DNA of 64,000 bases from a virus: positions 15,962 through 79,961 of the IMG/VR virus record IMGVR_UViG_3300011429_000001; one strand, given 5' to 3'. Every line of letters starts with the position of its first letter. Position 1 is the first letter of the stretch. Below, piece by piece: positions 2,594 through 18,561 of the stretch. The notes under the pieces were generated by a model. That model had not been told where the DNA came from, searched no databases, and was given only the letters and a program-made list of their open reading frames with translations. The translations under genes were made by a program, and so were the position numbers.

Positions 2594-3025
2594 TTACAGG
2601 TCGCCGATCTCCACGCCGTTCAGGATGAAGTTCCCCGAGAGGCGGACGGTCAGCGTCGCGGTCTGGATGCCATCGACCGGGCTCGCGCCCTGCAGGCCGC
2701 GCACGAAGCCGGATCCGATCCACTCGTCGCCGTCGGGGTTCTCCAGCTTGAAGCCGGTCTCCTCGTTGGCGATGAGCAGCTCGCGCAATCCGTCGTGCGA
2801 GGGCAGAGCCTGATTGAAGAACACCGGGACCGAGATCGGTTCACGGCGCAGGATGCCCATGATCCACTGGTCGATGTCCTTGTTGTGGATCGACGCGTCG
2901 AACTCGTTACGCATCAATCCCGGCGGCGTGATGTCGCCGAGCTCGGCGACCTCGATGAACGCGCCGCCAGGGGTGGGCTGGAAGGACAGAATCGTTCCGT
3001 GCGAAGAGAGGGCGTCAGTAGCCAT
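2594..3025 (-). CDS. Major tail tube protein
   Basis: GTILSF...IEVAELGDITPPG...GSGFVRG...ATLTVRLSG, lambda-like tail tube pattern and position. Confidence 0.85.
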   Translation of the reverse strand: MATDALSSHGTILSFQPTPGGAFIEVAELGDITPPGLMRNEFDASIHNKDIDQWIMGILRREPISVPVFFNQALPSHDGLRELLIANEETGFKLENPDGDEWIGSGFVRGLQGASPVDGIQTATLTVRLSGNFILNGVEIGDL

Positions 3026-3055: not shown

Positions 3056-3478
3056 TTATAGGGTTACGACGGTCGTGTTGCGAACACTTGTAAGAGCGGC
3101 GTATGCCGCTCTCGCCATTGCTTCTGCTGCTGCTGCTGAATTCGCCCGCACCGTTATCTGCGCGGACGGACGCTCGTAGGACGGACCGCTAACGTCGTTC
3201 TGGGTGCGGATACCTGTTACGCCGCCGGTCGCCACGATGTTGAGATACGGACCGGGACCCGGCGGGATCACGGCCTTCGACGAGATGAAGATGTTCGTGC
3301 CGAAGACGCCGACGCCCGCGCCGACGAGGATCGCGACGAGCTCCGTCGAGAACGTCGGCGAGGGTTGCTTCGTGGCGACGACGTTGAACGTCCACTGCGC
3401 TCGGCTCTGGCCGTCGAGCACGCCGGTGTCGAACGGCGGCTGCTGCTCTTGAATGTCCAGATACCATGTGGTGGCCAT
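3056..3478 (-). CDS. Tail terminator / tail completion protein
   Basis: GTNIFIS...TGG...YERPSAQITVRA...AEAMARAAYAAL; immediately before tail tube. Confidence 0.75.
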   Translation of the reverse strand: MATTWYLDIQEQQPPFDTGVLDGQSRAQWTFNVVATKQPSPTFSTELVAILVGAGVGVFGTNIFISSKAVIPPGPGPYLNIVATGGVTGIRTQNDVSGPSYERPSAQITVRANSAAAAEAMARAAYAALTSVRNTTVVTL

Positions 3479-3479
3479 T

Positions 3480-3920
3480 TTACACCATCCGCTCTAGGTT
3501 GAGATCCTTCGCGAGGTCGGCCGGGAGCGTCGAAACGGCCGCCATCAGCGGGCGTTCGAGATATTTCGGTCCGGTGCCGCTCGGCGAGAACGTCACCTGC
3601 ACGCCTTGCCACGATGGCGGCGAGTATTTCGACGGGTGCTCGTGGACCGCGAGCGCGTAGGCCGCGGCGGCGCCGCCGTAGCTTAGTTCGACGGTTACCT
3701 GTCGGCCGAGGTAGTACGGCGGCGAGACCTGCCCGCTGTTCTTCAGGGTCGAGAGATCGACCGGGACGTAGTTCTCCTTCGAGTCGGCCATGATTCGCTG
3801 CGCGCGGCGATACAGCGCACCGGCGACCATCGTGCCGAACTTCGCCTCAAGCGCCAGCAACCTCTTCGTGATGCCGTCGCCGGTGAACTTCCCCTTCGAG
3901 TCCCTACCCGTTATCGCCAT
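3480..3920 (-). CDS. HK97 gp10-like neck protein
   Basis: ADSKENYVPVDLSTLKNSG...YALAVHE...GPKYLERP motifs. Confidence 0.8.
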   Translation of the reverse strand: MAITGRDSKGKFTGDGITKRLLALEAKFGTMVAGALYRRAQRIMADSKENYVPVDLSTLKNSGQVSPPYYLGRQVTVELSYGGAAAAYALAVHEHPSKYSPPSWQGVQVTFSPSGTGPKYLERPLMAAVSTLPADLAKDLNLERMV

Positions 3921-4107
3921 CGGACCTCACGCTCGTGACGCCGCACTCGAACGCCGCCGCGACTTCGTTAAGCCGCGCCGCGACCGCCGGTTCTTCGTCG
4001 ATCGCGACCTCGCGGATCAACGCGGCGACCTCTCGACGGATGTCGGCCATCAACTCCGGCATCGACGTGATCGAGAGCTCGCCGCGTACCGGTTCGCGTG
4101 TATCCAT
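3904..4107 (-). CDS. Hypothetical protein
   Basis: 67 aa ORF coupled to neighbours. Confidence 0.6.
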   Translation of the reverse strand: MDTREPVRGELSITSMPELMADIRREVAALIREVAIDEEPAVAARLNEVAAAFECGVTSVRSDGDNG

Positions 4108-4108
4108 C

Positions 4109-6352
4109 TTACGGCGCCGTTTCGAGAACCGGTTGCATTACTCCGCTCGTCGCCGCGCGCTTCTCTTGTAGCGCAGCCTCGACGAGTCGACAGACTTGCT
4201 GCCCGATATCCGGCCACCGATACTCCGGCCGCTGGACGAGATCGAGTCCGCGCTTGACCGCCGTCTCGTACGCCGTATGGCGACGATAGAGGAGGTCGAG
4301 CGCGTCGATATTCGCTTGCTTACTCGGGACGCCGCCGAGCGTGCCGACCTTCACGCCAGCCATCGGCGAGACGTGATTGAAGGTCGCCGCGACGTCGACG
4401 CACGGTACGAGCATCGCGGCCGGGCGCGCCCACTCGCCAAGCGCGGACCAATCCGGTGCGATCACCGGAACGCCGCACGCCATCGCCTCCATTACCGGGA
4501 GTCCCCAGCCCTCGCCCTGCGTCGTCGTGAAGTAGACGTCGAACGAGTTGTAGATCGCTGCCATCATCGACTCGGGCATCGTTCGCTTCAGCGCTGGCTG
4601 GAAGAGGACGAGCCGATGAAGGAGACCGTAGTACTGCATAATGCTCGACACGTCGAACGCGGCCTCGCTGGTCGGCGCCGTCTGGATGTAGAGGTAAGCG
4701 TCCTCGATACTCGCGGCCTTGACCCACTCGGCGAAATGTACCGCTGTGAGGTCGAGTCGCTTCCGCGGTTGATTACGCGCGATACAACCGACGACGAACG
4801 CGTCGTGGAGTTGCGCCGGGAGCGTCATCGTCTGTCGCGAGAGCCGCTTGTCCTTCGGGTGGAACGTATCGAGGTCGACGCCGAGCGGCACGACGGCCGA
4901 GCGACCGGTAAAGCCGCCGAGCCGCGCCTCGTTCTCTGCGTCTCGCGTCCACCAGATTGCGAGCGCGACGTCGTTCAGGTAATCGCAGCGGACGTTCTTC
5001 CCGTCGATCGGCATAATCGCGACGAACGGCGTCTTGCCGACCGCGCGGATCCAGTTCTGTACATGCCATGGATCGTGCTGCCCGATGACGACGTCCGGTA
5101 CGAACGTCTGAAGCAGGTGCGAGATCCGCGGCTCGATCGCGTTGCCGTTCACCGGCGGATAGACGTCGTATGGGATCTCGTCGCGATCGTAGGGACAGCC
5201 GTCGTGCGTCGTCCCGATCGAGACGACGTCGAACCGCGGCAGGAGCTCGCGGATGATGTTTACGCCCGCGCGGCCGAAGCCGGTCCACGGCGTCGTCGGC
5301 GAGTCGCCGATCCAGAGGAGGCGCGGCTTACGGTCCGAGGCGAGGCGCATATTGCCGCGGTTCTTCGGCGCGTCGGCGATCATCCGCGGTGCCAGCGAGG
5401 CGTCGGCGCGGCACGCTGCGGCGAGCGCGTGCCAGAATCCGGTCCCGAGCTTCTCCCAACTGAAGTCCGCTTCGAGGCGCGCGTATTCCTCATCGCTGAT
5501 CGGGTCCGGCTGCGTCGAGAGGACGCGGACGAGGTGCTCGACTAGCGCGTCGCCGCTCGACTCCGGTACGTAGACCGGGATGCCGCCGAAGAGGAACCGC
5601 TGCTGCGGCGTATCGAAGCAGATCGGCCGGGCGCCACAAGCGGCGCCTTCGAGGACCGGAAGCTCGAAGCCCTCGCCGTGCCGCAGGCCGCTCACCCACC
5701 GCGCGCGGCCGTAGAGGGCGGCGAGGAGCGCGTCGGCGACCGGTCCGATAGCGGACCAGCCCGGGACCTGTGCCGCCATTCCCTCGACCTGCGACGGCCC
5801 GAGGTGGAGCGTCGTCAGGCCGACCCGCTGCGCGGCGAGCGCGACCTCCTCGATCGCCTCTTCCGTAGAGCTCGACACGAACCCGCTCGTCACGATGCCG
5901 ACGTCGCGCGCGGAGTCGCTGCGACGGAAGACGGCGCGGTCGACACCGAGCGGCGCCCAGTAGAGTTGTCGCGCCGCGGGCGCGAGCTCGGCCGACGTAT
6001 AGGTGCTACTAACGCCGCCCCAGTTCATCGATGCGCGGATATCGTGGTGGGTCCAGACCGCGAGGGCCTTCGACCAGACGGTATCCCACGCGTTGAAGCC
6101 TTCCGGTACGACGATCTTCGAGCGGTGGCCGCGCGAGACGTTCTCCATCGTCAGCGCGTGCTGGACGACCGCGTAGCGCGCGGCGCGGATCTTTCGCCGC
6201 GCCTTGAGGTCCGTCGCTTGGATGATCTGGATGTCGGCGCGCTCGGCTTCTCCGGCGATCCGGACCCAGTCGGGCTTCGTATTCGCGAGCGCCTCCGCGA
6301 CGCGCAGTGTGCCGAGGAGCTCCGGCTGTCGGTCGACGTAGACGCTAAGCAT
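4109..6352 (-). CDS. Two-domain GT-B (GT4-like) glycosyltransferase fusion
   Basis: N domain EGFELPVLEGAACG; C domain TGFGRAG...RNQPRKRLD...EGWGLPVMEAMACGVP (EX7E motif). Confidence 0.9.
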   Translation of the reverse strand: MLSVYVDRQPELLGTLRVAEALANTKPDWVRIAGEAERADIQIIQATDLKARRKIRAARYAVVQHALTMENVSRGHRSKIVVPEGFNAWDTVWSKALAVWTHHDIRASMNWGGVSSTYTSAELAPAARQLYWAPLGVDRAVFRRSDSARDVGIVTSGFVSSSTEEAIEEVALAAQRVGLTTLHLGPSQVEGMAAQVPGWSAIGPVADALLAALYGRARWVSGLRHGEGFELPVLEGAACGARPICFDTPQQRFLFGGIPVYVPESSGDALVEHLVRVLSTQPDPISDEEYARLEADFSWEKLGTGFWHALAAACRADASLAPRMIADAPKNRGNMRLASDRKPRLLWIGDSPTTPWTGFGRAGVNIIRELLPRFDVVSIGTTHDGCPYDRDEIPYDVYPPVNGNAIEPRISHLLQTFVPDVVIGQHDPWHVQNWIRAVGKTPFVAIMPIDGKNVRCDYLNDVALAIWWTRDAENEARLGGFTGRSAVVPLGVDLDTFHPKDKRLSRQTMTLPAQLHDAFVVGCIARNQPRKRLDLTAVHFAEWVKAASIEDAYLYIQTAPTSEAAFDVSSIMQYYGLLHRLVLFQPALKRTMPESMMAAIYNSFDVYFTTTQGEGWGLPVMEAMACGVPVIAPDWSALGEWARPAAMLVPCVDVAATFNHVSPMAGVKVGTLGGVPSKQANIDALDLLYRRHTAYETAVKRGLDLVQRPEYRWPDIGQQVCRLVEAALQEKRAATSGVMQPVLETAP

Positions 6353-7565
6353 GCTGCGCCTCCTGCTGCTTCTGAACGACCGGGTGGCCGAGAACGGTAC
6401 GCCGGATTGCGTCGGCCGTCGCGACGCCGATCGACGACCATCGATGCTCGCGCTTATCGCACAGCTTAAACCCGGCGTCGATCATATGCGAGCGGCGCTC
6501 CTTCGAGCGATAGACGCGGTCGAGCGCGGCGCAGAACTCCCGGCGGTCCGCGATACCGCCGATTACGTTCGGCGCGAACGAGTGGCCGGTCGATGGCGTG
6601 GCCGCGTGCGAGTAGCACGGTACCTGCTCGGCGGCAGTCGCCCACTCGCCGAGCGCGCTCCATTGCGGAACGACTTGCGGAACGCCGCACGCCATCCCTT
6701 CCATCTGCGGCAACCCCCAGCCTTCGCCTTGCGTCGTCGTCATCATTACGTCGAAGACGTTATAGATCCGGGCGAGGAGTTCCTCCGGGACGCCCTGCTG
6801 GTCCTTCGTGACGGCGGTCACGATCAGCCGGTCGGTAATGCGGTAGTACTTCGCGAGCTGTTCGAGGTCGAACGCGCGCTCGCCGGTCGGCGCCTGTTGA
6901 ATCCAGAGCGCCGCGTCGGCGACGTCGTACTCGTGGATCCATTCGGCGAAGTATTCGAGGGTGAGGTCGAGTCGCTTCCGGTGCTGGTTGCGACCGACGA
7001 CGCCAACGATGAACGTATCCTCCGGGAGACCGCGCTGCCCGAGCACCTTCGGCATGCTCATCTTTTCGCGGATCGCCGCCTTATCGAGCGGCCGGTAGAT
7101 ATTCAGGTCGACGCCGAGCGGGACGACCGTGCTCTCGCCGCTGTAGCCGCCGAGGCGCGCCTGCTCCTCGCCGAACTTCGTCCAGAAGATCGCGTGCTGG
7201 AGGCCGTTCAGCAACGAGCCGCGGCAGTTCTTACCGTCGATCGCGACGATGCCGACGACCGGCGTCGTGCCGGTCCGCTGGAGGTAGTAGGGGAAGTTCC
7301 ACGGGTCGTTCTGGATCACGCACACGGCGGGACCGATCTTGCCGATCAACTCGTCGGTACGCGCGATCCCGATACCGTCGCCGCCGGAGCAGCGATAGAT
7401 CGGGAACTGATTCTGAACCGGGTGCGGGTCGCCGTCGTAACCGAGCGCGAGGACATGCACGTCGAAGTGCTCGCGCACGACCTTCAAGATCTCATGGGTG
7501 CATCGCGCGAAGCCAGTCGAGACGCCCGCGTCGCCGATCCACAATAGCCGTCGTTTCGTTGTCAT
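6345..7565 (-). CDS. GT4-like glycosyltransferase
   Basis: STGFAR...RNQHRKRLD...EGWGLPQMEGMACGVP. Confidence 0.92.
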   Translation of the reverse strand: MTTKRRLLWIGDAGVSTGFARCTHEILKVVREHFDVHVLALGYDGDPHPVQNQFPIYRCSGGDGIGIARTDELIGKIGPAVCVIQNDPWNFPYYLQRTGTTPVVGIVAIDGKNCRGSLLNGLQHAIFWTKFGEEQARLGGYSGESTVVPLGVDLNIYRPLDKAAIREKMSMPKVLGQRGLPEDTFIVGVVGRNQHRKRLDLTLEYFAEWIHEYDVADAALWIQQAPTGERAFDLEQLAKYYRITDRLIVTAVTKDQQGVPEELLARIYNVFDVMMTTTQGEGWGLPQMEGMACGVPQVVPQWSALGEWATAAEQVPCYSHAATPSTGHSFAPNVIGGIADRREFCAALDRVYRSKERRSHMIDAGFKLCDKREHRWSSIGVATADAIRRTVLGHPVVQKQQEAQHA

Positions 7566-7626
7566 CGTTTTTATCCTTGGCGTTGGCGGTTAGGTCCCTC
7601 GTCGGTTCCACCGCGCTCGCCTGCTG

Positions 7627-7938
7627 CTACTTCTCCGTCTCCTTACCTACTTCATCGACGCGGCGCCAGTAGTTCCCGAACACGGTCTGGCGGCTCGCGT
7701 GAACCACCGAGGACGCGCGCTCGATCTGGCGTCCGCTCCCGCCGTTGTCGCGGCGGTCTTCGTCGCCGGATGTGAACACGAGGTTCACCGTCGGCGCCGG
7801 ATCGTCGGTCTCTAGGATGTTGCCGTGCGCGTCCTTCTTGGCATCGCGGTTGGCGTCTCCCCAGATCGTGGTTAAGACGGCGCCGCGCGCGACGCCCGTC
7901 GTATCCACGTAGACGATCGGGTCACTGAGTTTCAACAT
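7627..7938 (-). CDS. Hypothetical protein
   Basis: 103 aa with GGAGG RBS, inside the GT island. Confidence 0.7.
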   Translation of the reverse strand: MLKLSDPIVYVDTTGVARGAVLTTIWGDANRDAKKDAHGNILETDDPAPTVNLVFTSGDEDRRDNGGSGRQIERASSVVHASRQTVFGNYWRRVDEVGKETEK

Positions 7939-7960
7939 TCCTCCTCACCTCCCTTCGCTT

Positions 7961-8641
7961 TTAGGTTCCGGTCCGCTTGATGTGGGGCTGCATCGCCGGG
8001 TGCTGCTTCTCCCACGGTAGGTACGCGTACTTCGCGATGATATTCTGCTTCGCGATCTCGAACTTCCGATGGTGCGCGTCGATCTCTTCGTTCGTCGCGC
8101 GCGCGTTCGTCTGGCTCCCGCCGTGGAGGACCGTACAGGGCGCATTCTGTTGGAGCCACGCGCCGCCGCCCTCCATGAAGAGCCGGACGCGCATGTCGTA
8201 GTCGATGTCCTCCCAGTACGCGTAGCCGGGCGAGATCGCCTCGTCGAACTTCCCGACCTTCTCGATCGCGCTGTCGCGAATCAAGTAGCAGGAGTAGCCG
8301 TGGCCGAAGACGAGGTCGCCGGGCGTATCGCGTATCTGCTCGACCGCGTCGGCCGTGAACGTGATGTCGTCGTTCGTGATGATTCGGTCCTCTGGCATGT
8401 TCTCGATCAAGTAGTTCCACGACTCGGCGATGCCCATCGGCGTCGGCGGTTCGCAGACGTCGACCGGGAACGGGAGGCCCTCGATCGCTTCGTGGACGCG
8501 GTCGTGCTTCTTCCCGTTGTCGATAATCCAGACCTTCGTCGGGACGAGCGTCCCGGCCGCGGCCGAGAGCAGCATCAACCGCAGGAGGTCGTATCGCCGG
8601 AGGACCGGGACGCCGATGTAGATCTGTTTCTTCTCGCCCAT
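7961..8641 (-). CDS. GT2-like glycosyltransferase
   Basis: Start MGEKKQIYIGVPVLRRYD after AGGAG; IIDNG, ITNDD (DXD), FDE...AYWED. Confidence 0.88.
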   Translation of the reverse strand: MGEKKQIYIGVPVLRRYDLLRLMLLSAAAGTLVPTKVWIIDNGKKHDRVHEAIEGLPFPVDVCEPPTPMGIAESWNYLIENMPEDRIITNDDITFTADAVEQIRDTPGDLVFGHGYSCYLIRDSAIEKVGKFDEAISPGYAYWEDIDYDMRVRLFMEGGGAWLQQNAPCTVLHGGSQTNARATNEEIDAHHRKFEIAKQNIIAKYAYLPWEKQHPAMQPHIKRTGT

Positions 8642-8652
8642 TGCTGCTGCTC

Positions 8653-9882
8653 CTACGCCGCGGTATGCGGCCGAATGAGAACCGTCACGTCCTCGCACCA
8701 AACGAAGTCCGCCGAGGTGTAGCCGGACTTCGCGGCGAACGTCTCTAGGTAGAGGACGTCGCCGCCGTAGAAGTCGCCGAACTCGCCGCGCCGGGCCGGG
8801 TCGTTCGGCACGAGCGCCATCGGCGTACCGACGTTGCCGCACTCGACGATCTGGCTCCGCCAAAGCTCCTGCCCGTTCGCGTAACGCATCCGGAAGATGA
8901 TCGGCCGTCCCGGATTGTTCTGAATCGCTGCGGCCATCAACGTCCGGTAGCCGGGCGCGTAGGCGTCGTCGTCGTCGAGATGCGCGATGTATTCGCACGT
9001 GGCGAGCGGCATCGCTGTATTCCGTTCGGCGTGCCCCCAGTTGTTACCCGGCGCGTGTTGAAGGTAGCGCGCGCGCGGATCGAGTTGCGGCGTCGCGTCG
9101 CCGACGACGATGAGCTCATCTCCCGGACGGAGCTCGATCGACGCCAGCGTCGCGACGAGCGTCGGGCGATTCGAGGTCGCCACGATGAACGAGATGCTAC
9201 CCGGTACCGGGCCGGGCCGGAGCATCGCGGAGAGCTTCTCGACTGCCTCCGCGACGGCCCGCTCGTGGTACTCCATGTGGTTCCCGGGAGCGCGCCGCGC
9301 GGCCTCGCCCTCGATGAAGGTTTGGTCCGGCGCGTGCCCGGCCCAGTCGTGTTGGATCTCGACCTCTCGAAGCTGGACCTGCCGACCGAGGCGGCCCATT
9401 ACGTCGCGTAGGTAGATATCGCCCCAGAAGATGCGCGGGTCGTAGAGGAAGCCGAGCCGATCGGCGACGGCCTTCGAGACGAGCGATAGCGGGAAGTGCG
9501 ACTCGTTATGCGTACGGACGCCGATATTGAAGACGCCGTCCGGATAGCGGTCCGCGGCGGCGAGGATCGCTGGCGCCCAGTCCGGCGTAACGAAGAGGAT
9601 GTCGTCGTTACCGAGCATCAGCACGTCGCCGTGCGCGACGACCGCGAGCTCGTTGAAGAACTTCGGGAGCTCCGCGTAGCCTCCGCCGCGCGGCCCGACG
9701 ATGACCGTGTGCGGCGTTCCGGCGAGGAGCGCGAGCGTCTCGGCGTCATCCTCGTCGGCGCGGAAGACGAGCTCGGATGCGCCCGGCGCAGCGGCCGTCG
9801 TGCGGTCGTAGCTATCGAGCAGCAACCGGAGGCGGTCGAGCCGCTTCCGCGTCGGCACGAGGACCGAGACCTTACGATACAT
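8653..9882 (-). CDS. Tandem GT-A (GT2-like) glycosyltransferase, two domains
   Basis: VSVLVPTRKR...LGNDD and ISFIVATSNR...GHAERN...HLDDDD. Confidence 0.87.
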   Translation of the reverse strand: MYRKVSVLVPTRKRLDRLRLLLDSYDRTTAAAPGASELVFRADEDDAETLALLAGTPHTVIVGPRGGGYAELPKFFNELAVVAHGDVLMLGNDDILFVTPDWAPAILAAADRYPDGVFNIGVRTHNESHFPLSLVSKAVADRLGFLYDPRIFWGDIYLRDVMGRLGRQVQLREVEIQHDWAGHAPDQTFIEGEAARRAPGNHMEYHERAVAEAVEKLSAMLRPGPVPGSISFIVATSNRPTLVATLASIELRPGDELIVVGDATPQLDPRARYLQHAPGNNWGHAERNTAMPLATCEYIAHLDDDDAYAPGYRTLMAAAIQNNPGRPIIFRMRYANGQELWRSQIVECGNVGTPMALVPNDPARRGEFGDFYGGDVLYLETFAAKSGYTSADFVWCEDVTVLIRPHTAA

Positions 9883-10042
9883 GCTTCTCCCGGTGTTGCT
9901 TCCGCAGGTGGTCGAGCACCGCGACGACCTGCTCGTCGGTGAGTACGCCTTCGTCCTCGGCGATTAGGAGCGCGACGTTGTCGTCGTAGCTGGCGCGGCA
10001 CCGAGGGCACCGCGCCAGAAGGGCCGTGAGTTCGTCGCGCAT
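9872..10042 (-). CDS. Small hypothetical protein (56 aa, CxxC)
   Basis: MRDELTALLARCPRC...; TAATG overlap with the radical SAM stop. Confidence 0.55.
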   Translation of the reverse strand: MRDELTALLARCPRCRASYDDNVALLIAEDEGVLTDEQVVAVLDHLRKQHREKHVS

Positions 10043-11658
10043 TAGTGCCCCGCGTAGGTCAGCGACGACGCGGCGGTCAAGGTGCCGTTCGCCGCGGCCT
10101 CGTCCTGCTGCGCTCGGATCCGCTTGTCCTCGTCCCACTCGGCCTTCGCCCATCCGTTCGCGACTTGGAAGTCGAACATCTCCTTCTTCACGCGGAACAT
10201 CTCGTCGACCGTGACGCCGTCCGGCTGGACGAGGATCTCGTCGCGCGCGGAGAACCCGACGATCCACTGGTTGTCGTAGTTGTAGTCGTGGATCGTGATG
10301 CCGCTCTCGCGAGGATGCGTCCACCACCGCGAGCCGGGATACGGGATCCCGACCGCGAGGTTGCAGGAGTCGAGGTAGGGCTTGACCTTCAGGAGCCAGT
10401 CCTGCGTCTCCTTCATCGTGTCGAGCGTCTCGCCCGCCATGCCGATGACGAGGAAGGCGATCGTGTAGAAGCCCTGCTCTTTCGCGCGGATGATCGCGTC
10501 GGTGTTCTGCTGAACCTTCGTGCCCTTCTGGTTCGCGTCGAGCACCTTCTGGCTTCCGCTCTCGATGCCGAAGCACGTGACCTTGCACGACATCCGGTGG
10601 AGGCTCTCGGCGACGTGGTCGTCCATCGTGTTCACGCGGGTGTGAATGCGCGCGGCGAACGCGTTCCGACCGAACGCCGAGTCGATCGAGTCGGCGAGCT
10701 CGCGGAGCTTCGTCCGGTGTAGGGTGTAGGTGTCGTCCTGGAACTTGAACATCCGGACGCCCTTGTCCATCACGCTCGCCATCTCGGCGATGATATTCGC
10801 CGGGCTTCGGTAGCGCGGCTTCTGCCCGATCCACGGCGTCGAGCAGTAGGTACACTTGTAGGGACAGCCGCGCGTACCGATAATCGACATCACGGCGCCG
10901 CTCGCCTCCGGGTGGAACTCGTTCGGGAAGTACTTCTTCTTCATCACGGCGACGCCGTCGTTGTAGATGTGGTCGTGCGGGAGGAGGTCCCACGCCGGGA
11001 ACGGAATAACGTCGAGGTCCATCGCGTCGGCCTTGTCGCCGTAGTAGAACGGCTGGAGCTTCCCGGCGTCCCAATCCGAGAGCGCCTGCAGGACCGCGAC
11101 CTCGCCTTCCATGATGACGACCGTGTCGAAGAGCCGCTCGCCGTCGGCCGCGCGGTAGTCGCGACGCTGCGAGAGGCGGCCCTTATAGTGATAGTGCTCC
11201 TGCCGCCCGGCCTCGTAGGTCTCCTTCGGCTCGTAGCTCGGGTGCGGTCCGCCCGCGACGAGGAGCGCCTCCGGGTTGCGGTCCTTGATGTAGGCCGCGA
11301 GCTCAAGCGCCTCGCCGAACTGCGGCGTGCAGAAGCCGAACATGTGGACGTCCGAGTCCATCGCCTCTTCGGGGAGATGGATGTTGCCCTCGTATCGCTT
11401 GTCGAGCATCGACGTTACGATGACGTCGTGGCCTTGCTCGCGCATCAGACCGGCGATGTAGAGGACGCCGAGCGGCACGTTGGTCTTCGAGTCGGCGAGC
11501 CACGGCGACGACGGCAGGATGCAGTTGATCTTTAACCGCCGTCCTTCCTTCGCGAGGTTCCGGATCGGGAGACCGGACGTCGTCACCGACTCGCAGCTTC
11601 CGGAGCCGCTCATCTGGTAGGCGCTATTCAGCGCCGACACTGGAATTACTTTGCTCAT
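10042..11658 (-). CDS. Cobalamin-binding radical SAM enzyme (class B methylase-like)
   Basis: PLGVLYIA...GGPHPS B12 domain; RGCPYKCTYC (CX3CX2C); FQDDTY; FGIESGSQ. Confidence 0.93.
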   Translation of the reverse strand: MSKVIPVSALNSAYQMSGSGSCESVTTSGLPIRNLAKEGRRLKINCILPSSPWLADSKTNVPLGVLYIAGLMREQGHDVIVTSMLDKRYEGNIHLPEEAMDSDVHMFGFCTPQFGEALELAAYIKDRNPEALLVAGGPHPSYEPKETYEAGRQEHYHYKGRLSQRRDYRAADGERLFDTVVIMEGEVAVLQALSDWDAGKLQPFYYGDKADAMDLDVIPFPAWDLLPHDHIYNDGVAVMKKKYFPNEFHPEASGAVMSIIGTRGCPYKCTYCSTPWIGQKPRYRSPANIIAEMASVMDKGVRMFKFQDDTYTLHRTKLRELADSIDSAFGRNAFAARIHTRVNTMDDHVAESLHRMSCKVTCFGIESGSQKVLDANQKGTKVQQNTDAIIRAKEQGFYTIAFLVIGMAGETLDTMKETQDWLLKVKPYLDSCNLAVGIPYPGSRWWTHPRESGITIHDYNYDNQWIVGFSARDEILVQPDGVTVDEMFRVKKEMFDFQVANGWAKAEWDEDKRIRAQQDEAAANGTLTAASSLTYAGH

Positions 11659-11686
11659 AATTGTGCCTTTCCGTTGTCACCAGCCG

Positions 11687-12421
11687 TTAGGCCGGAGTGG
11701 ATGCCGCACGTTTCCGCATGCAGAGGTTAACGAACGAGTAGTTGTGAACGAAGTCGCCGCGGTAGTCGAAGTCGGTGTCGCCGACGAACTCAAGCCCGAA
11801 CCGCGCCGGGAGCTCGGCGACGAACTCCGGACGGTAGGGCGTGACCTGCAGGTGCCGCGAGACGCTCTGCTCGAAGTGCGCGAGGTCGCGGAAATAGTCG
11901 CTGGTGATAAAAACGAAGCCGCCCGGCTTCGTAATCCGAACCATCTCGCGGAGCGCCGCGTCGTGGTCGTGCACGTGCTCGACTGAACTGATACAGAGCG
12001 TGACGTCGAACTTATCCGTTGCGCCGCCCCAGCCAGGCGTCGCGCCCTCCGGCATGTTTTCCATGTCGAGGTTCCAGCACGGAAGAGAGATCCCGTAGGC
12101 GGCGCGCTGCGCGGCGACCATCGGCGTGACGTCGCCGTATTGCATGTTATCCGTACAGCAGAGCCGCGGATAAAGCTGCGCGAGGAACGGGTCGAAGAAC
12201 GACGCGCCGCTCCCGAGGTCGATCATCTCCGCGTCGCGCGGGACGTCGAGGTCGTGAAGCTGCTGGAGGACGCTCGCGTATTCCCAGAAGCGATGCGGAT
12301 GCCACTCTCGGTGCGGGACGCCGCGCGCGATCATCTCGTCGAGGTGCGCGTGCAGTCGCTCGTCGTAGGCGCGGAGCATCGGGTAGTCGTCCGGGTGTAG
12401 CGAGCGGTTGAACGGTCTCAC
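11687..12421 (-). CDS. Class I SAM-dependent methyltransferase
   Basis: IDLGSG motif I; FDVTLCISSVEHV; KPGG. Confidence 0.9.
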   Translation of the reverse strand: MRPFNRSLHPDDYPMLRAYDERLHAHLDEMIARGVPHREWHPHRFWEYASVLQQLHDLDVPRDAEMIDLGSGASFFDPFLAQLYPRLCCTDNMQYGDVTPMVAAQRAAYGISLPCWNLDMENMPEGATPGWGGATDKFDVTLCISSVEHVHDHDAALREMVRITKPGGFVFITSDYFRDLAHFEQSVSRHLQVTPYRPEFVAELPARFGLEFVGDTDFDYRGDFVHNYSFVNLCMRKRAASTPA

Positions 12422-12753
12422 AGAGTCCTCCAGTTACCGGCCTCGAAGAAGCCGTGCCAGTTACTCTTACCCTTGTGCCAGATACTCGGCGCGAACGTCG
12501 GCGCCGAGACGCTCCCGTCCCACTGCCAATACCCGGCTTGCTTCTCGCCCGCGCGAACGTAGAAGTGATCGTGCTTCGAGACGTAGCCCTCGCCGTTACT
12601 ATTCAGGATGCCGTCCGGCGCGCGATAGCAGAAGAGCGCGACGCCTTGGTAGCGCGCCTCCGGGTATGGGTCGAGGTCGAGGAACCAATCGCCGGTCTCC
12701 CTGACGTCGGCGGCCGACGCGACGCGGCGCCCGGGCGTAATGCCGTCGCTCAT
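12418..12753 (-). CDS. DUF6527-like protein
   Basis: WQWDGSVSAPTFAPSI...WHGF; start at MSDG with ATGA overlap. Confidence 0.65.
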   Translation of the reverse strand: MSDGITPGRRVASAADVRETGDWFLDLDPYPEARYQGVALFCYRAPDGILNSNGEGYVSKHDHFYVRAGEKQAGYWQWDGSVSAPTFAPSIWHKGKSNWHGFFEAGNWRTL

Positions 12754-13547
12754 CGGTAGATGTGCTCCCCGTCGTAGCGTTCCCACAACTTCTTGATATC
12801 GACGCCGTACTCGGCGAGCTGCGCCGTCGCTGCTGCGAGGTCGCGCGGCGCGCCGTGATACGGGTGGAAGTAGAGGAGCTCCGGGATCCGGATCATCTCG
12901 ACGCCAGCCTTATGGAGGCGGAACTGGAACTCGGTCTGCGCGTGCCCCCAGACCGTAAGCTGCTCGTTCATCGCGCCGACCTTCTCGAACGCATCGCGCC
13001 GAATGAGGTAGACGCCGGTATCGATCAGCGTGTATTCGGCCGCGGCGCCGGGTAACGTCTTCAACGAGACCGCGCCGCCGTTAACGCGCCACCCGGCGGC
13101 GTCGCAATCGAGGACCGTCACGTGCAGGTGATAGCAGTCGCCGGTAACGAAGCCGTGCCAGCCGTACCCGCGGACCGCCGCTTGCTGGACGCTCCGCGCG
13201 AGGAGGCCATCGGCGAGGAGATAGTCGGCGCGCGTGAAGAAGACCCACGGCGTCTTGGCCTCTCGGACGGCGACGTTCGTCGACCAGCTGTGCGTCTTCG
13301 TCGGGTCGCCGTGCTTGAAGCTCAGGAGCCGCGTCGGCACCGGGAAGTTCTGCTCGTTGATCGCCGCGGCGATCTCCGGCTGCGAGTCCTCGGTATTGTT
13401 GTCGACGACGACGACCTCGGCGAGCATATCCATGTTCTGACGGCGCAGCGAGTAGAGCGCGGCCCGCAAGTTATCGAGCGTGAGCGACCTGAAGTAGGTC
13501 ATACACGCCGTCGCCTGTAGCCGCGGTACCGGTCCGGCGACGCTCAC
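12750..13547 (-). CDS. GT2-like glycosyltransferase
   Basis: VVVVDNN, FTRADY, WGHAQTEF; GTG start overlapping the upstream TGA. Confidence 0.82.
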   Translation of the reverse strand: MSVAGPVPRLQATACMTYFRSLTLDNLRAALYSLRRQNMDMLAEVVVVDNNTEDSQPEIAAAINEQNFPVPTRLLSFKHGDPTKTHSWSTNVAVREAKTPWVFFTRADYLLADGLLARSVQQAAVRGYGWHGFVTGDCYHLHVTVLDCDAAGWRVNGGAVSLKTLPGAAAEYTLIDTGVYLIRRDAFEKVGAMNEQLTVWGHAQTEFQFRLHKAGVEMIRIPELLYFHPYHGAPRDLAAATAQLAEYGVDIKKLWERYDGEHIYR

Positions 13548-13885
13548 GGCAGGTAGACCTCGTCGTAGATGACGCCCGTCTCGTCTGAGACCGGCTCGAT
13601 GCGAAGCGCCTGGACTTCGAGGCGGTGCGGTTGAAACGGGCTCGTGATATCGAAGCGCATAATCGACGGGTCGTGCGAGACGAGGACGCCGCCGACGATA
13701 CAGAGGACGCTGCTGACTACCTCTTGCCCTGACATGTCGCGAACGAGGTGCGGGCCGCCCTCGTACCGGCAGCGATACTCCGCGCTGCCGCCGCTCGCGA
13801 ACCACGTCCCGGCGCCGTCGACGAAGCCCGGCTGCGCGACGATGGTCGCGTCGAAGAGCGGGAGGAGATCGTCGAGGAACGCCAT
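13544..13885 (-). CDS. Head closure protein (SPP1 gp16-like)
   Basis: YRCRYEGGPHLVRDMSGQEVVSS; follows the adaptor gene. Confidence 0.75.
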   Translation of the reverse strand: MAFLDDLLPLFDATIVAQPGFVDGAGTWFASGGSAEYRCRYEGGPHLVRDMSGQEVVSSVLCIVGGVLVSHDPSIMRFDITSPFQPHRLEVQALRIEPVSDETGVIYDEVYLP

Positions 13886-14510: not shown

Positions 14511-14954
14511 CTACTTCCGTTTGCCAGCGGTCTTTTTCTTCGCCGTCTTTTTGGACTCGCGCGGCTTCGGCGTCTGCTCGTTCCCGCTCTTCGTCGGCGC
14601 GGCCGGTGGTGCAGCCGGAGGCGGCGGCGGCGGTACTGGCGCCGGTACCGCGGGCGGCGCGGGTGCGACGGGTTCGACCGGCGTAGGCGGCTCCGCGTCG
14701 GCCGCTGGCTCGGGCTCCTGCGTATTTACCGGCTGCGGGATCGGGAGCGGATTCATCTGCATCGAGAGGGCGCGCCCGGCGGCGATCTCTTCGGGCGTCG
14801 CGAGCCGGATCGACTCGTACTTCTCTTCCGCTTGTTCCAGAGAGAGCTCGATCAGGTCGCCGCGCTTTCGCGTGACAAGCGTGCCGCCCTTGCCCCTTGC
14901 GTCGCCGCCCTCGAAGCGTGCGAATTTGCCGAACTCAATAACGTATATGGGCAT
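14511..14954 (-). CDS. Pro/Ala-rich hypothetical protein downstream of the capsid gene
   Basis: AAGGAG RBS; PAPPAVPAPVPPPPPP linker; Lys-rich tail. Confidence 0.7.
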   Translation of the reverse strand: MPIYVIEFGKFARFEGGDARGKGGTLVTRKRGDLIELSLEQAEEKYESIRLATPEEIAAGRALSMQMNPLPIPQPVNTQEPEPAADAEPPTPVEPVAPAPPAVPAPVPPPPPPAAPPAAPTKSGNEQTPKPRESKKTAKKKTAGKRK

Positions 14955-15041: not shown

Positions 15042-16064
15042 CTAGACCGTGTTACCGGTCACGATGCCCGACTGGTCGGTGTAGGTCGTCTTCACGCGCG
15101 GGATAATGCACGCGAGAACGATCCAGTTCATCCCGAGACCGCCGTCCTGATCCCACGAAATAACCGTGGGCTCCTGACCGACGACGAGATCGATAACGTC
15201 GCTCGTGCGCTGCACGAGGACGGTGCGGTTCGCCGGGAGCATATCGGCCGAGCGGACGCGGAGCGTCTGGCCGCCGAACGACATCTGCTCCAGACGCTGA
15301 CGGATGGTCGTCGGGAACGTCGTGACGCCGTCCGTCCAGTTGCGGTTCAGGATCAGGTCGTAGGCCGTGTTCACGTAGAGCGTGTACGGGCCGAACTTCC
15401 TGTCGCCGACCGCGAGCGCGACCATCGCGAGAACGTCGTCGACGATCTCTTGACCGGTCTTGCCCGCCGCGTTCCACGCCTCGCCGCCCGCGTACTGATA
15501 CGCGTTGACGTTCGGCGCGTTCAGCAAGCCCGGGACCGAGCTGCCGAAGACCGGCGTCGGGATGCCGTTGATCGCGGCGTCTTCGATCGCCTCGTTCACG
15601 CGGCGCGTCGCGACCTCGATGAGCGTCGTGTCGAGCGGAACGCCGCCGCCACGCTGGCTCGCCGAGAGGGTGCGGATGCCGAGCTCGAAGCTGTCCCACG
15701 TCAGGTAGACGGGGAGGATCTTCGCACGTCGGTCAACGATGAAGTTCTCGCCGCGGGCGCGAGGCTCCATCGTGCGCTTCGCGCCACCGGCCTCGTTCTG
15801 CTCGTCCCACTGCACCTGCGTGGTGCCCCAGAACGACTGGCCGATGTCGTACGTGAGTCCGTCGCTCATCAAATCGGCGACGACGGAGAGTCGATCGAGA
15901 CCGACCTTGAGGACGGTATCGTCGATCAACTTCTGCGCGTTCTCCGGCAGTGGACGCAAGGCGCGGAACTGCTGGACCGTGAGCTTGCCCTCCACCAGCA
16001 GGCGAAGCGCGGGAGGCGCCCCTGCGGGGAGCGGCTGTCCGATGCTTACAAGGTTCCTCGACAT
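15042..16064 (-). CDS. Major capsid protein, HK97 fold, encapsulin/Linocin-M18-like
   Basis: PLDTTLIEVATRRVNEAIEDAAING...GLLNAP...FGPYTLYV; AGGAGG RBS. Confidence 0.9.
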   Translation of the reverse strand: MSRNLVSIGQPLPAGAPPALRLLVEGKLTVQQFRALRPLPENAQKLIDDTVLKVGLDRLSVVADLMSDGLTYDIGQSFWGTTQVQWDEQNEAGGAKRTMEPRARGENFIVDRRAKILPVYLTWDSFELGIRTLSASQRGGGVPLDTTLIEVATRRVNEAIEDAAINGIPTPVFGSSVPGLLNAPNVNAYQYAGGEAWNAAGKTGQEIVDDVLAMVALAVGDRKFGPYTLYVNTAYDLILNRNWTDGVTTFPTTIRQRLEQMSFGGQTLRVRSADMLPANRTVLVQRTSDVIDLVVGQEPTVISWDQDGGLGMNWIVLACIIPRVKTTYTDQSGIVTGNTV

Positions 16065-16072
16065 GTATCCTC

Positions 16073-16498
16073 CTAAACGGCCTCGACGCGGATACGCGCG
16101 TCGCCGGTGGTGGCGTTCTTGGCTTCGATGGCTCGCGCGAGCGGCACGCCTGCGGCCAGCGCGCGGAGCTTACCCGCACCGGCTGATTCGAGCACGGCAC
16201 CGTCGGCGACGTTCTGACCGGACGCCAGCCACGCGAGGCCGGTCGATCCCGCCGGGAACACGCCTGCCCAGAGCAGGTCGTTTGCCGCGTAGGTATCGTC
16301 GATGGTCTTGTTCATCTCCGGCGCGTCGAGCGCGAGAGTGAGCGGTCCCGCCGCCGCCGCCGGGTGGAAGCCGTAGGCGCCGCCGCTGCGCGCGACGGCC
16401 ATGCCGGGCGTCAACGCGACCGAGGTCGCGATGTCGTTGACGCGGACGATGTTGCCCGCGAGGTGGATTACGTTTGCCGCGTAGTGGGTGATGGCCAT
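16073..16498 (-). CDS. Capsid decoration/cement protein
   Basis: LTPGMAV...GQNVADGAVLESAGAGKL...ARAIEA; between protease and capsid genes. Confidence 0.75.
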   Translation of the reverse strand: MAITHYAANVIHLAGNIVRVNDIATSVALTPGMAVARSGGAYGFHPAAAAGPLTLALDAPEMNKTIDDTYAANDLLWAGVFPAGSTGLAWLASGQNVADGAVLESAGAGKLRALAAGVPLARAIEAKNATTGDARIRVEAV

Positions 16499-18312: not shown

Positions 18313-18561
18313 CTACGGCTTGCGGATTACCTGCCGACCAGGCGTCGAGATACTCACGCTGACGCGGCCGACGAAGCCGTCCGCGACGAACTCGCGAATT
18401 TGGTCGAGGGAGATGGCGAGCTCGTAGGTGTTCCAGTCGTTTCCGCACTTGCAGACGTGGTGCCGCTTATGCGCGCCGACGCTCGGGACCGGTCGGCTAT
18501 CGGTAACGCGGCCTCGTCGACCGCACTTTAAGCAGAGTTTCGGATTCGCTGGGCGGCTCAT
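18313..18561 (-). CDS. NrdR/Ogr-like zinc-ribbon protein
   Basis: CLKCG...VTDSR...KRHHVCKCGNDWNTYE; ATGA overlap with the MuF stop. Confidence 0.7.
   Translation of the reverse strand: MSRPANPKLCLKCGRRGRVTDSRPVPSVGAHKRHHVCKCGNDWNTYELAISLDQIREFVADGFVGRVSVSISTPGRQVIRKP

What the first reader, a model, noticed from the sequence alone, without database searches (positions are those of the whole stretch)
3904..13547. ~9.6-kb glycosylation island inside the head-tail joining module
Seen: five GT genes with seven GT domains (three GT-B, four GT-A), a B12 radical SAM enzyme, a class I MTase and small ORFs, all coupled, lie between head closure (13544) and the gp10-like neck gene (3920). Established: some mycobacteriophages use virion-operon GTs to glycosylate capsid and tail-tube proteins. 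Inference: late-expressed machinery building a complex, methyl-tailored glycan on the virion or the exported fibre proteins. No nucleotide-sugar synthesis, flippase or polymerase genes are present, which favours cytoplasmic protein glycosylation with host donors over O-antigen conversion.
Basis: partly seen in the sequence, partly recalled or inferred. Interest (0 to 1): 0.82.

Follow-up and report, generated by a model that had tools for sequence, protein, structure and literature searches.

The report
Phage neck-module glycosylation island with radical enzyme
A complete, uncultivated 100-kb phage carries, between its head-completion and tail genes, a 9.6-kb block of seven sugar-transferase domains, a methyltransferase and a phage-only B12-type radical SAM enzyme. 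The block most likely coats the virus particle with a tailored glycan, but neither the target nor the chemistry has been shown.

Summary
Window 3904-13547 (minus strand) holds five GT genes with three GT-B/GT4 and four GT-A domains, a class B radical SAM (rSAM) enzyme, a class I methyltransferase, a DUF6527/BubE-like protein and three small ORFs. The genes overlap or lie at most 61 nt apart, between head-completion genes and Neck1/terminator/tail-tube genes.

The genome is complete, with terminal repeats. It has no integrase, GtrA or common nucleotide-sugar synthesis genes. No island protein has a transmembrane helix.

About 35 uncultivated phage loci carry homologous cassettes in structural operons, but two place the rSAM-MTase-GT-A trio beside replication genes. 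The rSAM is the most conserved gene (median 79% identity; capsid 45%). It is almost absent from cellular genomes and sometimes carries an intein at its Fe-S motif.

The GT4/GalT-like pair matches a cassette in cyanophage S-CBS4. The proven mycobacteriophage GTs are not detectably homologous.

Best reading (about 0.55): late cytoplasmic glycosylation of virion proteins. The target is unknown. "Methyl-tailored" is uncertain, because the nearest solved structure is the diol dehydratase AprD4.

The scan has reported similar cassettes before on other DNA. I found no paper describing a B12-rSAM in such a cassette. I rate it a new variant of a known kind.

The parts
12750..13547 (-). GTA265: single-domain GT-A glycosyltransferase, the conserved partner of the rSAM and MTase. 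Its GTG start overlaps the upstream stop (GTGA).
   Evidence: AlphaFold model pLDDT 90.9 with GT-A fold; Foldseek hits WrtF, K4CP, SpsA and ppGalNAc-Ts. The profile hits PDB GT-A enzymes at E 4.5e-7. PF00535 six-frame hit of 32.4 bits. Homologs in 25+ loci.
12418..12753 (-). DUF6527/BubE-like small protein (111 aa), ATGA-coupled.
   Evidence: PF20137 at 30.5 bits against a cut-off of 23.6, and PHROG 15183. The family was described as a Ser-His peptidase (bioRxiv 10.1101/2024.11.21.623953). It is also present inside the cassette in L010 and L058.
11687..12421 (-). MT244: class I SAM-dependent methyltransferase.
   Evidence: Methyltransf_11 at 36.6 bits against a cut-off of 21.2. Median 62% identity in 20 related loci, always next to the rSAM.
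10042..11658 (-). Class B (B12-binding-domain) radical SAM enzyme of a phage-specific clade.
   Evidence: PF04055 at 69 bits and PF02310 at 46.3 bits. Cluster motif at C265, C269 and C272. Model pLDDT 85; nearest structures are AprD4, MgmA and TsrM, then PH0819, Fom3 and BchE. No NCBIfam equivalog is reached. More than 110 metagenomic clusters at 49% identity or more. Only one close hit in GTDB genomes.
9872..10042 (-). s56: small CPRC-motif ORF that overlaps the rSAM stop by 1 nt.
   Evidence: Conserved directly after the rSAM in at least 8 loci at 38-56% identity. No family or Atlas assignment.
8653..9882 (-). GTA409: fusion of two GT-A domains (N roughly 1-228, C roughly 229-409).
   Evidence: C-half: PF00535 at 41.5 bits; profile hit at E 3.5e-8 to PDB chain 9jma, a GT-A glycosyltransferase. 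N-half: PHROG 14945 at 8.5e-13 and an invariant NDD motif. The halves are separate genes in most relatives, often with GTA226 between them.
7961..8641 (-). GTA226: GalT-like GT-A glycosyltransferase.
   Evidence: PHROG 29879 'galactosyl transferase' at 1e-18. 30% identity over its full length to S-CBS4 gp15. PF00535 at 20.6 bits, below cut-off. Invariant NDD motif.
7627..7938 (-). s103: small ORF of unknown function.
   Evidence: Found only in the near-identical contig L001/L031. Its Atlas neighbours are viral hypothetical proteins.
6345..7565 (-). GT406: GT4 (GT-B) glycosyltransferase.
   Evidence: Pfam Glyco_trans_1_4 and Glycos_transf_1 above cut-off; PHROG 2170. Homologs lie directly upstream of Neck1/terminator/tail-tube genes in 29 loci. 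28% identity to S-CBS4 gp14.
4109..6352 (-). GT747: two GT-B domains. The N-half (roughly 1-340) is a free-standing gene in some relatives; the C-half is a paralog of GT406.
   Evidence: The N-domain exists as a separate ORF in L038, L041, L042 and L044.
3904..4107 (-). s67: small ORF that overlaps the Neck1 start by 17 nt.
   Evidence: ORF with GC3 0.82. Found only in the near-identical contig L001/L031.
13544..13885 (-). Upstream flank: 113-aa putative head-closure protein (assigned by position only).
   Evidence: No Pfam or PHROG hit. Conserved in L001 and L010.
3480..3920 (-). Downstream flank: Neck1/tail-completion protein.
   Evidence: PHROG 5 at E 4.9e-4. It is followed by the tail terminator 3056-3478 (PF12691, E 1.8e-4) and the tail tube 2594-3025 (PHROG 158).

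Best explanation
The island is a late-expressed, cytoplasmic protein-glycosylation pathway of a virulent siphovirus.

It is transcribed as part of the head-completion/tail operon. Its soluble GT4 and GT-A enzymes use host nucleotide sugars to start and extend an oligosaccharide on one or more virion structural proteins. Candidates are the capsid, the decoration protein, the tail tube or an accessory protein.

A conserved sub-module of GT-A GTA265, class I methyltransferase and class B radical SAM enzyme makes and installs a chemically tailored residue. That residue would be C-methylated or deoxygenated, and O-methylated.

Shown: gene content, folds, coupling, conserved synteny, absence of membrane and lysogeny components. 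Inferred: late expression, a protein acceptor, the chemistry, and the function of the coat (shielding or adsorption).
For: Gene content and tight coupling:
- Seven GT domains, an MTase and an rSAM are verified.
- Gene overlaps are tight and there are no internal promoter or terminator signals above chance.

Conserved position in structural operons:
- The slot between MCP/connector genes and Neck1/terminator/tail tube is conserved in about 20 sipho-type loci whose MCPs are only 30-49% identical.
- A second lineage has the island just before the adaptor/Neck1/tape-measure genes (L058).
- A 34%-identical rSAM sits in another GT/MT/sulfotransferase cassette after the portal gene of an unrelated 89-kb phage.

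No membrane or lysogeny components:
- No island protein has a TM helix.
- The complete DTR genome has no integrase, resolvase, GtrA, epimerase or NTP-transferase.

The rSAM clade is phage-specific:
- It is nearly absent from 185,579 cellular genomes.

Precedents:
- Corndog has an MT plus three GTs inside its virion operon (PMC4351075).
- Virion glycosylation was shown for Che8, Corndog and Myrna, as cited in PMC12363180 and PMC11256854.
- PBCV-1 has multidomain GT+MT proteins that glycosylate its capsid protein (PMC7826918).
- A homologous GT4+GalT(+MT) cassette lies between portal and protease in cyanophage S-CBS4.
Against:
- No structural protein has an obvious Ser/Thr-rich acceptor tail.
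- The island GTs are not detectably homologous to the experimentally implicated Corndog GTs.
- In two contigs the rSAM-MT-GT-A trio lies beside replication genes, not structural genes.
- One lineage has the rSAM in the head module without a detectable GT or MT.
- Soluble GT4 and GT2 enzymes also build LPS core and lipid-linked glycans, so the absence of TM segments is not decisive.
Confidence: 0.55

Rival explanations
1. Late remodelling of the host envelope. The soluble GTs modify LPS core, an Und-P-linked O-unit or EPS on the cytoplasmic face, and host machinery exports the product. This could mask receptors so that progeny are not trapped on debris, or exclude competing phages.
For: GT4 and GT2 enzymes without TM segments are typical of LPS-core and EPS assembly. 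NCBIfam gives weak hits to EpsD, EpsE, HfsG, WcaA and WcaL. The endolysin is GH24 and the nearest cultured relatives infect Brevundimonas, which is compatible with a Gram-negative host.
Against: The complete genome has no integrase or resolvase, so this is not lysogenic conversion. There is no GtrA, flippase or other TM protein. The position is fixed inside head-tail genes across lineages with very different structural proteins. The rSAM clade is virtually absent from cellular genomes, where envelope pathways reside.
Confidence: 0.15
2. The radical SAM enzyme, with or without MT244, modifies a virion protein directly. An example would be C-methylation of a side chain, as MgmA and Mmp10 do on methyl-coenzyme M reductase. 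The GTs would act independently. In that case the island combines two separate virion-maturation chemistries.
For: MgmA (a protein glutamine C-methylase) is the second-best structural match, and NCBIfam gives generic hits to the MCR methylase and RiPP rSAM models. L059 has the rSAM in a head module without a detectable GT or MT. The conserved N- and C-terminal extensions (ending in YAGH) could be docking elements.
Against: The rSAM is 75-96% identical among phages whose structural proteins are 30-49% identical. That fits an invariant small-molecule substrate better than a fast-evolving protein. It co-occurs with GTA265 and MT244 even when displaced to the replication region. The best structural match acts on a sugar (AprD4).
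Confidence: 0.15
3. DNA or nucleotide hypermodification. The GT-A enzymes glycosylate modified bases and the rSAM and MTase prepare or tailor the adduct.
For: In L053 and the P0068 contig the rSAM, MT244 and GTA265 homologs sit beside DnaB, primase, PolA and SNF2 genes. GT-A-fold enzymes glycosylate DNA bases in other systems (my own knowledge). An earlier scan note reads a different rSAM+GT-A cassette this way (e1-3271779).
Against: Seven GT domains imply an oligosaccharide, which is implausible on packaged DNA. The island lies between head and tail genes in about 35 loci. There are no nucleic-acid-binding, kinase or hydroxymethylase partners in the island.
Confidence: 0.08
4. Synthesis of a free glycosylated small molecule or glycopeptide. 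Examples are an aminoglycoside-like compound, or a RiPP with s56 as precursor.
For: AprD4 (aminoglycoside pathway) is the nearest solved structure. The small ORF s56 immediately follows the rSAM in several loci.
Against: s56 is missing from many cassettes, and GTA265 and MT244, not s56, are the constant partners. There are no transporter, scaffold-forming or leader-peptidase genes. Placement in the neck module is unexplained by this reading.
Confidence: 0.05

Closest known systems
Mycobacteriophage virion glycosylation (Corndog gp35-38; also Che8 and Myrna)
   Same: A methyltransferase and several GTs are encoded inside the virion structural operon (Corndog, between portal and protease). The enzymes are made in infected cells but are not part of the virion, and capsid modification was proposed and later demonstrated (PMC4351075; Freeman et al. 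2023 as cited in PMC12363180 and PMC11256854).
   Different: There is no detectable sequence or profile homology to Corndog gp35-38. This island is larger (seven GT domains, including three GT-B) and sits in the neck rather than the head-protease slot. It adds a class B radical SAM enzyme and a BubE-like protein. The host is probably not an actinobacterium. Che8's GTs lie at the genome end, not in the structural operon.
Synechococcus siphovirus S-CBS4 gp14-gp16 cassette (GT4, galactosyl transferase, SAM-MTase between portal and protease)
   Same: GT406 and GTA226 are full-length homologs of gp14 and gp15 (28% and 30% identity, E 1e-34 and 4e-17). The genes are adjacent in both phages, lie in the structural region and have a class I MTase nearby.
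   Different: S-CBS4 has no rSAM, no GTA265 or GTA409 homologs and no second GT-B gene. Its cassette is uncharacterised, so it offers homology but no functional proof.
Chlorovirus PBCV-1 capsid glycosylation enzymes A064R and A111/114R
   Same: These are virus-encoded, cytoplasmic, multidomain GT (and GT+methyltransferase) proteins that build a methyl-capped glycan on the major capsid protein without host ER/Golgi enzymes (PMC7826918). They parallel the fused GT-GT genes plus MTase found here.
   Different: It is a eukaryotic giant virus with N-linked atypical glycans. No radical SAM enzyme is involved, and no sequence relationship was tested.
Class B radical SAM enzymes: AprD4 (PDB 6fd2), MgmA (9ccb), TsrM, Fom3
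   Same: Same two-domain architecture (Rossmann B12-type domain plus rSAM barrel with CxxxCxxC). Foldseek gives E 2.8e-21 and TM 0.74 to AprD4, which acts on a sugar. Swiss-Prot neighbours are mostly C-methylases, including Fom3, which acts on a nucleotide-linked substrate.
   Different: Identity is only 14-23%. All NCBIfam subfamily scores are far below cut-off. The phage clade has its own conserved N-terminal extension, a 27-residue insert and a C-terminal YAGH tail. Substrate and reaction type are unknown.
Sequential cytoplasmic O-glycosylation of serine-rich-repeat adhesins (GtfA/GtfB, Gtf3, GalT1) and flagellin O-GlcNAcylation by GmaR
   Same: These pathways work the way the island is proposed to work. 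Soluble GT4 and GT2 enzymes glycosylate a folded or nascent protein in the cytoplasm one sugar at a time (my own knowledge). There are weak profile hits to Gtf1/GtfA, GalT1 and GmaR.
   Different: The hits are weak (E 4e-4 to 0.06). There is no accessory Sec system and no serine-rich acceptor here. This is an analogy of mechanism, not membership.

Membership tests
Phage virion-glycosylation cassettes (Corndog/Che8 type) | Phage-encoded GTs (with or without an MTase) co-oriented with and embedded among virion structural genes | tested here: met
   The Corndog layout is given in PMC4351075.
Phage virion-glycosylation cassettes (Corndog/Che8 type) | Homology to the experimentally implicated GTs (Corndog gp36-38) | tested here: not met
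   BLASTP E values are 0.19 or higher, and hhalign probabilities are below 1%. Che8 proteins were not fetched.
Phage virion-glycosylation cassettes (Corndog/Che8 type) | Glycans covalently attached to capsid or tail-tube subunits | not testable with these tools
   This needs virions and MS or staining. The phage is uncultivated (IMG/VR record).
GT4 / GT-B glycosyltransferases | Pfam GT4 models above cut-off and an EX7E-type motif in the C-terminal Rossmann domain | tested here: met
   GT406 and GT747C are shown. GT747N has the motif, and its profile hits MshA at E 2.9e-7.
GT-A / GT2-like glycosyltransferases | GT-A fold with a DxD-type motif (GTA265 and GTA409C) | tested here: met
   GTA265 model and Foldseek hits. 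GTA409C scores 41.5 bits on PF00535.
GT-A / GT2-like glycosyltransferases | The same, for GTA226 and GTA409N | tested here: inconclusive
   Both are below the PF00535 cut-off (20.6 and 13 bits), and PDB hits are weak or absent. However, they hit PHROG GT families at 1e-18 and 8.5e-13, have invariant NDD motifs, and GTA226 is homologous to S-CBS4 gp15.
Class B (cobalamin-binding) radical SAM enzymes | CxxxCxxC rSAM domain plus an N-terminal B12-binding-type domain, and the matching fold | tested here: met
Class B (cobalamin-binding) radical SAM enzymes | Membership of a named functional subfamily (PhpK, HpnJ, BchE, AprD4, HpnR, TsrM and others) | tested here: not met
   The best score is 105.9 bits against cut-offs of 251-775 bits.
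Class B (cobalamin-binding) radical SAM enzymes | Actual cobalamin binding and methyl transfer | not testable with these tools
   AprD4, the top structural match, is a diol dehydratase, not a methylase (PDB title). By my recollection it works without cobalamin. The question therefore cannot be settled from sequence.
Serotype-converting phage glycan systems (GtrABC/Oac type) | Membrane-embedded flippase or transferase components | tested here: not met
   The maximum KD19 is 1.63 or less in all island proteins. There is no GtrA family hit in the genome.
Serotype-converting phage glycan systems (GtrABC/Oac type) | Temperate phage, with the genes near integrase/att and expressed in the lysogen | tested here: not met
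   The genome is complete with terminal repeats and has no integrase or resolvase. The island lies in the middle of the late operon.
BubE/DUF6527 serine peptidases | PF20137 domain above cut-off | tested here: met
   30.5 bits against a cut-off of 23.6.
BubE/DUF6527 serine peptidases | Ser-His dyad, C4 zinc finger, and an operon with E1, E2 and Ubl genes | tested here: inconclusive
   A Ser and a His lie 10 residues apart, as described for S92/H102, but this copy was not aligned to BubE sequences. It has only one Cys, so there is no C4 finger. No E1, E2 or Ubl genes are nearby.

The most novel reading that the evidence does not exclude
The rSAM-MTase-GT-A trio is a phage-specific pathway that uses radical chemistry (C-methylation or deoxygenation) to make a sugar not supplied by the host, and installs it on virus particles. 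This would be the first radical-SAM-dependent step in virion glycosylation. It would be widespread in soil phages and important enough that the rSAM is the best-conserved gene of these genomes, is exchanged between lineages and hosts inteins at its Fe-S motif.
Probability: 0.35. Interest if true: 0.8.

Novelty: new variant of a known kind. Interest (0 to 1): 0.6.

Why it matters
Virion glycosylation in phages has been shown only for a few mycobacteriophages, where it alters antibody recognition. Here the same genomic logic appears in a large, unrelated group of uncultivated high-GC phages, with a much richer enzyme set.

If the reading is right, self-glycosylation of phage particles is widespread. 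It would also use chemistry (a class B radical SAM enzyme) not previously linked to virus particles.

This has three consequences:
- It bears on phage stability, adsorption, and evasion of host or environmental recognition.
- It matters for annotating "auxiliary" GT genes in viromes.
- It offers a compact, soluble, host-independent glycosylation toolkit. The very high conservation of the rSAM makes it a convenient marker gene for such cassettes.

Tried and rejected
- A near-identity DNA search of the island against 50,697 phage records found no match.
- The Freeman et al. 2023 paper could not be read, so it is cited only through papers that cite it.
- Two literature searches for a phage radical SAM enzyme in a virion glycosylation cassette found nothing relevant.
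- Direct and profile comparisons with Corndog gp35-38 were negative.
- The GTA226 profile against PDB gave no hit. hhalign among the four GT-A profiles was only weakly positive.
- Atlas look-ups for s56 and s103 were uninformative.
- PHROG scans of the rSAM neighbours in L059 and L053 gave nothing useful.
- Host assignment failed. There are no tRNAs in the flanks. The only cellular-genome hit is a probable phage contig binned in a Sulfuricaulis MAG. The GH24 endolysin and distant Brevundimonas-phage relatives only hint at a Gram-negative host.
- I looked for Ser/Thr-rich acceptor tails in the structural proteins and found none.
- Lysogenic conversion is rejected: there is no integrase or resolvase.
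- Recent acquisition is rejected: GC and GC3 match the rest of the genome.


Full report
**Setting.** The window is bases 15962-79961 of a single-contig IMG/VR virus record of 100,629 bp. The record has direct terminal repeats and an estimated completeness of 100%. GC is about 65% throughout. Every convincing ORF lies on the minus strand, with GC3 of 0.80-0.92.

PHROG and Pfam scans give a canonical siphovirus late operon, read from high to low coordinates:
- TerL 29119-30804 and portal 27529-29112.
- MuF-like protein 18558-19268 and protease/scaffold 16525-18228.
- Head decoration protein 16073-16498 and MCP 15042-16064.
- Four small connector-region ORFs, then the island.
- Neck1 3480-3920 and tail terminator 3056-3478 (weak hit).
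- Tail tube 2594-3025, two chaperone ORFs and the tape measure.

The 'head closure' label for 13544-13885 is positional only. It has no family hit.

The gene model was refined with start-codon inspection. It comprises GTA265, a DUF6527 protein, MT244, the rSAM, s56, GTA409, GTA226, s103, GT406, GT747 and s67. Successive genes overlap by 1-17 nt or are separated by 1-61 nt. Promoter- and terminator-like sites are no more frequent than in shuffled sequence.

Three GT-B domains are supported:
- GT406 and the C-half of GT747 pass the Pfam GT4 cut-offs.
- These two are 43% identical paralogs.
- The N-half of GT747 carries the EX7E-type motif. A nine-sequence profile of it hits the GT4 enzyme MshA at E 2.9e-7.
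- The N-half is a free-standing gene in several relatives.

Four GT-A domains are supported to different degrees:
- A six-frame PF00535 search of the whole genome returns exactly four matches, all inside the island.
- GTA265 gives a confident GT-A model at pLDDT 90.9. Foldseek matches WrtF, K4CP, SpsA and ppGalNAc-Ts.
- GTA409C passes the Pfam cut-off and hits PDB GT2 enzymes.
- GTA226 and GTA409N are sub-threshold in Pfam. They match PHROG glycosyltransferase families at 1e-18 and 8.5e-13, and both keep an invariant NDD motif.

The rSAM has PF04055 and PF02310 above cut-off and the cluster motif at C265, C269 and C272. MT244 is a class I methyltransferase.

**What the genome lacks.**
- No island protein has a hydrophobic 19-mer typical of a TM helix.
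- The complete genome has no hit to Epimerase, NTP_transferase, GtrA, tyrosine integrase or serine recombinase families. All control genomes were positive for the first two.
- The phage is therefore probably virulent. It brings no common nucleotide-sugar synthesis genes and no membrane glycan-export parts.

**Relatives.** No cultured phage is close. The MCP and portal reach only about 32-34% identity, to Brevundimonas siphoviruses and a haloarchaeal virus.

IMG/VR, GTDB and the protein collection yielded about 55 loci. I mapped the window's proteins onto them with tblastn. This shows the following:
- **Main lineage.** About 20 siphovirus loci carry the core GTA265 - MT244 - rSAM - GTA409N - (GTA226) - GTA409C - GT406 in the same slot. 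That slot lies after the MCP/connector genes and directly before Neck1/terminator/tail tube. Their MCPs are only 30-49% identical to this one.
- **Second lineage.** About 12 loci, plus L058, have GTA265-MT-rSAM-GTA409N-GTA409C just upstream of the head-tail adaptor, Neck1 and tape measure.
- **Partial cassettes.** Fourteen further loci have only the GT406-type GT4, with or without a GT747N-like or GTA226-like gene, in the same neck slot.
- **A distant cassette.** A 34%-identical rSAM sits after TerL-portal in an unrelated 89-kb phage. It is accompanied by a sulfotransferase, a sulfatase-family protein, two GT2s, two MTases, a GT4 and a giant GT2+GT4 fusion.

There are real exceptions:
- In L053 (rSAM 70% identical, on a 122.8-kb contig) and in the P0068 contig, the rSAM lies beside DnaB, primase and PolA.
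- In L053, an MT244 homolog and two GTA265 homologs lie within 8 kb.
- In L059 the rSAM is in a head module with no detectable GT or MT.

The constant unit is therefore rSAM + MT244 + GTA265. The other GTs are a variable periphery.

**The radical SAM enzyme is the most remarkable component.**
- *Conservation across loci.* Median identity to the window protein is rSAM 79%, MT244 62%, GTA409N 53%, GTA265 50%, GT406 45%, MCP 45% and tail tube 40%.
- *No tracking of capsid divergence.* L002 and L003 have MCPs at 49% and 43% but rSAMs at 93% and 92%.
- *Evidence of exchange.* In the 97%-identical sister contig L001, the rSAM gene alone drops to 92-93% nucleotide identity. This indicates allelic replacement. 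Strong constraint and exchange between phages are both at work.
- *Size and distribution of the family.* It comprises more than 110 clusters at 49% identity or more, then falls sharply to 40% and 34%. Among 185,579 cellular species genomes there is one close hit, on a phage-like contig of a MAG.
- *Inteins.* Several homologs are 855-908 aa long because they carry inteins. In L055 the intein sits between Y271 and C272, the third cysteine of the cluster motif.
- *Clade-specific features.* Main-clade members share an N-terminal extension, a 27-residue insert and an invariant C-terminal YAGH.
- *Structural neighbours.* The model (pLDDT 85) is closest to AprD4, a diol dehydratase acting on an aminoglycoside sugar. 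MgmA, TsrM, CysS, TokK and OxsB follow.
- *Swiss-Prot neighbours.* These are mostly C-methylases, including Fom3.
- *Subfamily.* No NCBIfam subfamily cut-off is approached.

The reaction type (methylation, dehydration or other) and B12 use are therefore open. 'Methyl-tailored' is secure only for MT244.

**Mechanism.** The best-supported reading is cytoplasmic glycosylation of virion proteins during late infection. It rests on several lines of evidence:
- The island is integrated into the late operon.
- The slot is conserved across lineages with very different structural proteins.
- All components are soluble.
- There are no lysogeny or export functions.
- The rSAM clade is restricted to phages.
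- There are precedents.

The precedents are as follows:
- Corndog carries an O-methyltransferase and three GTs between portal and protease. They are made in infected cells but are absent from virions (PMC4351075).
- Virion glycosylation of Che8, Corndog and Myrna has since been shown, as cited in PMC12363180 and PMC11256854.
- PBCV-1 uses multidomain GT and GT+MT proteins on its capsid protein (PMC7826918).
- GT406 and GTA226 are full-length homologs of adjacent genes gp14 and gp15 of cyanophage S-CBS4. Those lie with an MTase between portal and protease.

The high conservation of the rSAM and MT244, against fast-evolving GTs, leads me to infer a division of labour. The rSAM and MT244 would tailor an invariant small substrate, such as a nucleotide sugar or the first sugar. 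The GTs would face the variable acceptor.

The acceptor is unknown. No structural protein has a Ser/Thr-rich tail. GT406's constant adjacency to the neck and tail-tube genes is only a hint.

**Rivals** are listed with weights in the report sections:
- Late remodelling of LPS or EPS. Soluble GT4 and GT2 enzymes also do this, and the missing flippase is not decisive.
- Direct protein modification by the rSAM.
- DNA hypermodification. This is favoured only by the two replication-module contexts.
- A free glycoside or RiPP.

**Comparison and novelty.** By architecture the island belongs with phage virion-operon glycosylation cassettes. By homology it is unrelated to the proven mycobacteriophage enzymes and is related to the uncharacterised S-CBS4 cassette.

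I found no paper describing a B12-type rSAM in such a cassette. The scan itself has already reported similar GT/MT/B12-rSAM cassettes in the head modules of other uncultivated phages. These are unchecked AI notes and are not independent evidence.

I rate this a new variant of a known kind. It is of moderate-to-high interest, mainly because of the phage-only, hyper-conserved, intein-bearing rSAM and the size of the GT set.

Noticed in passing
L055:10001-12727 (also P0029, P0030, P0035, P0049, P0052, P0086, P0090): Some homologs of the island's radical SAM enzyme carry an intein of about 375 aa. In L055 it is inserted between Y271 and C272, so the +1 extein residue is the third cysteine of the CxxxCxxC iron-sulfur motif.
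   Followed up: partly
window 10000-11500 versus L001: The sister contig L001 is 97% identical overall and 98-100% identical in most 500-nt bins. Identity drops to 92-93% across the rSAM gene only, which suggests allelic replacement of that gene.
   Followed up: partly
window 12418-12753; L058:6093-6446: A DUF6527/BubE-like protein recurs inside the glycosylation cassette in two diverged lineages. The family was recently described as a Ser-His peptidase of bacterial ubiquitin-like conjugation operons. This copy keeps a Ser and His 10 residues apart but lacks the C4 zinc finger. It may be a deconjugating counter-defence or acceptor-processing enzyme.
   Followed up: partly
window 23683-26613 and 22238-22519: Two ORFs in the head operon begin with classical Sec-type signal peptides (hydrophobic core, then A-x-A followed by Q). 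The 976-aa protein is Thr/Ser-rich with repeated LPLPTGA motifs. This is unusual for genes between portal and MuF.
   Followed up: no
L046/L047:9294-19147: An unrelated 89-kb phage has a different cassette after TerL-portal: a sulfotransferase, a 34%-identical B12-rSAM, two GT2s, a sulfatase-family protein, two MTases, a GT4 and a roughly 1,020-1,050-aa GT2+GT4 fusion. It suggests sulfated virion glycans.
   Followed up: no
L009:4420-6986; L059:7574-9289; L056:11972-14809: Relatives insert Gly_rich_2 and Laminin_G_3 (lectin-fold) proteins between the MCP and the connector genes. This phage's 945-aa tail protein has TIG and Laminin_G_3 domains. These are possible glycan-binding or glycan-bearing appendages.
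   Followed up: no
window 14511-14954: A 147-aa ORF between the MCP and the connector genes has a long Pro/Ala-rich segment followed by a Lys-rich tail. It has no family hit and is a conceivable linker-type acceptor or scaffold.
   Followed up: no
window 8653-9882 versus L003, L004, L007-L009: The two GT-A halves of GTA409 are separate genes in most relatives, usually with the GTA226 gene between them. In this phage they are fused and GTA226 follows, which is a gene fusion with rearrangement.
   Followed up: partly
L045:173-5086: A 6.5-kb metagenomic contig has two B12-rSAM genes (one 40% identical to the island's) with two methyltransferases and no GT. This is a different use of the nearest outgroup of the rSAM clade.
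   Followed up: no
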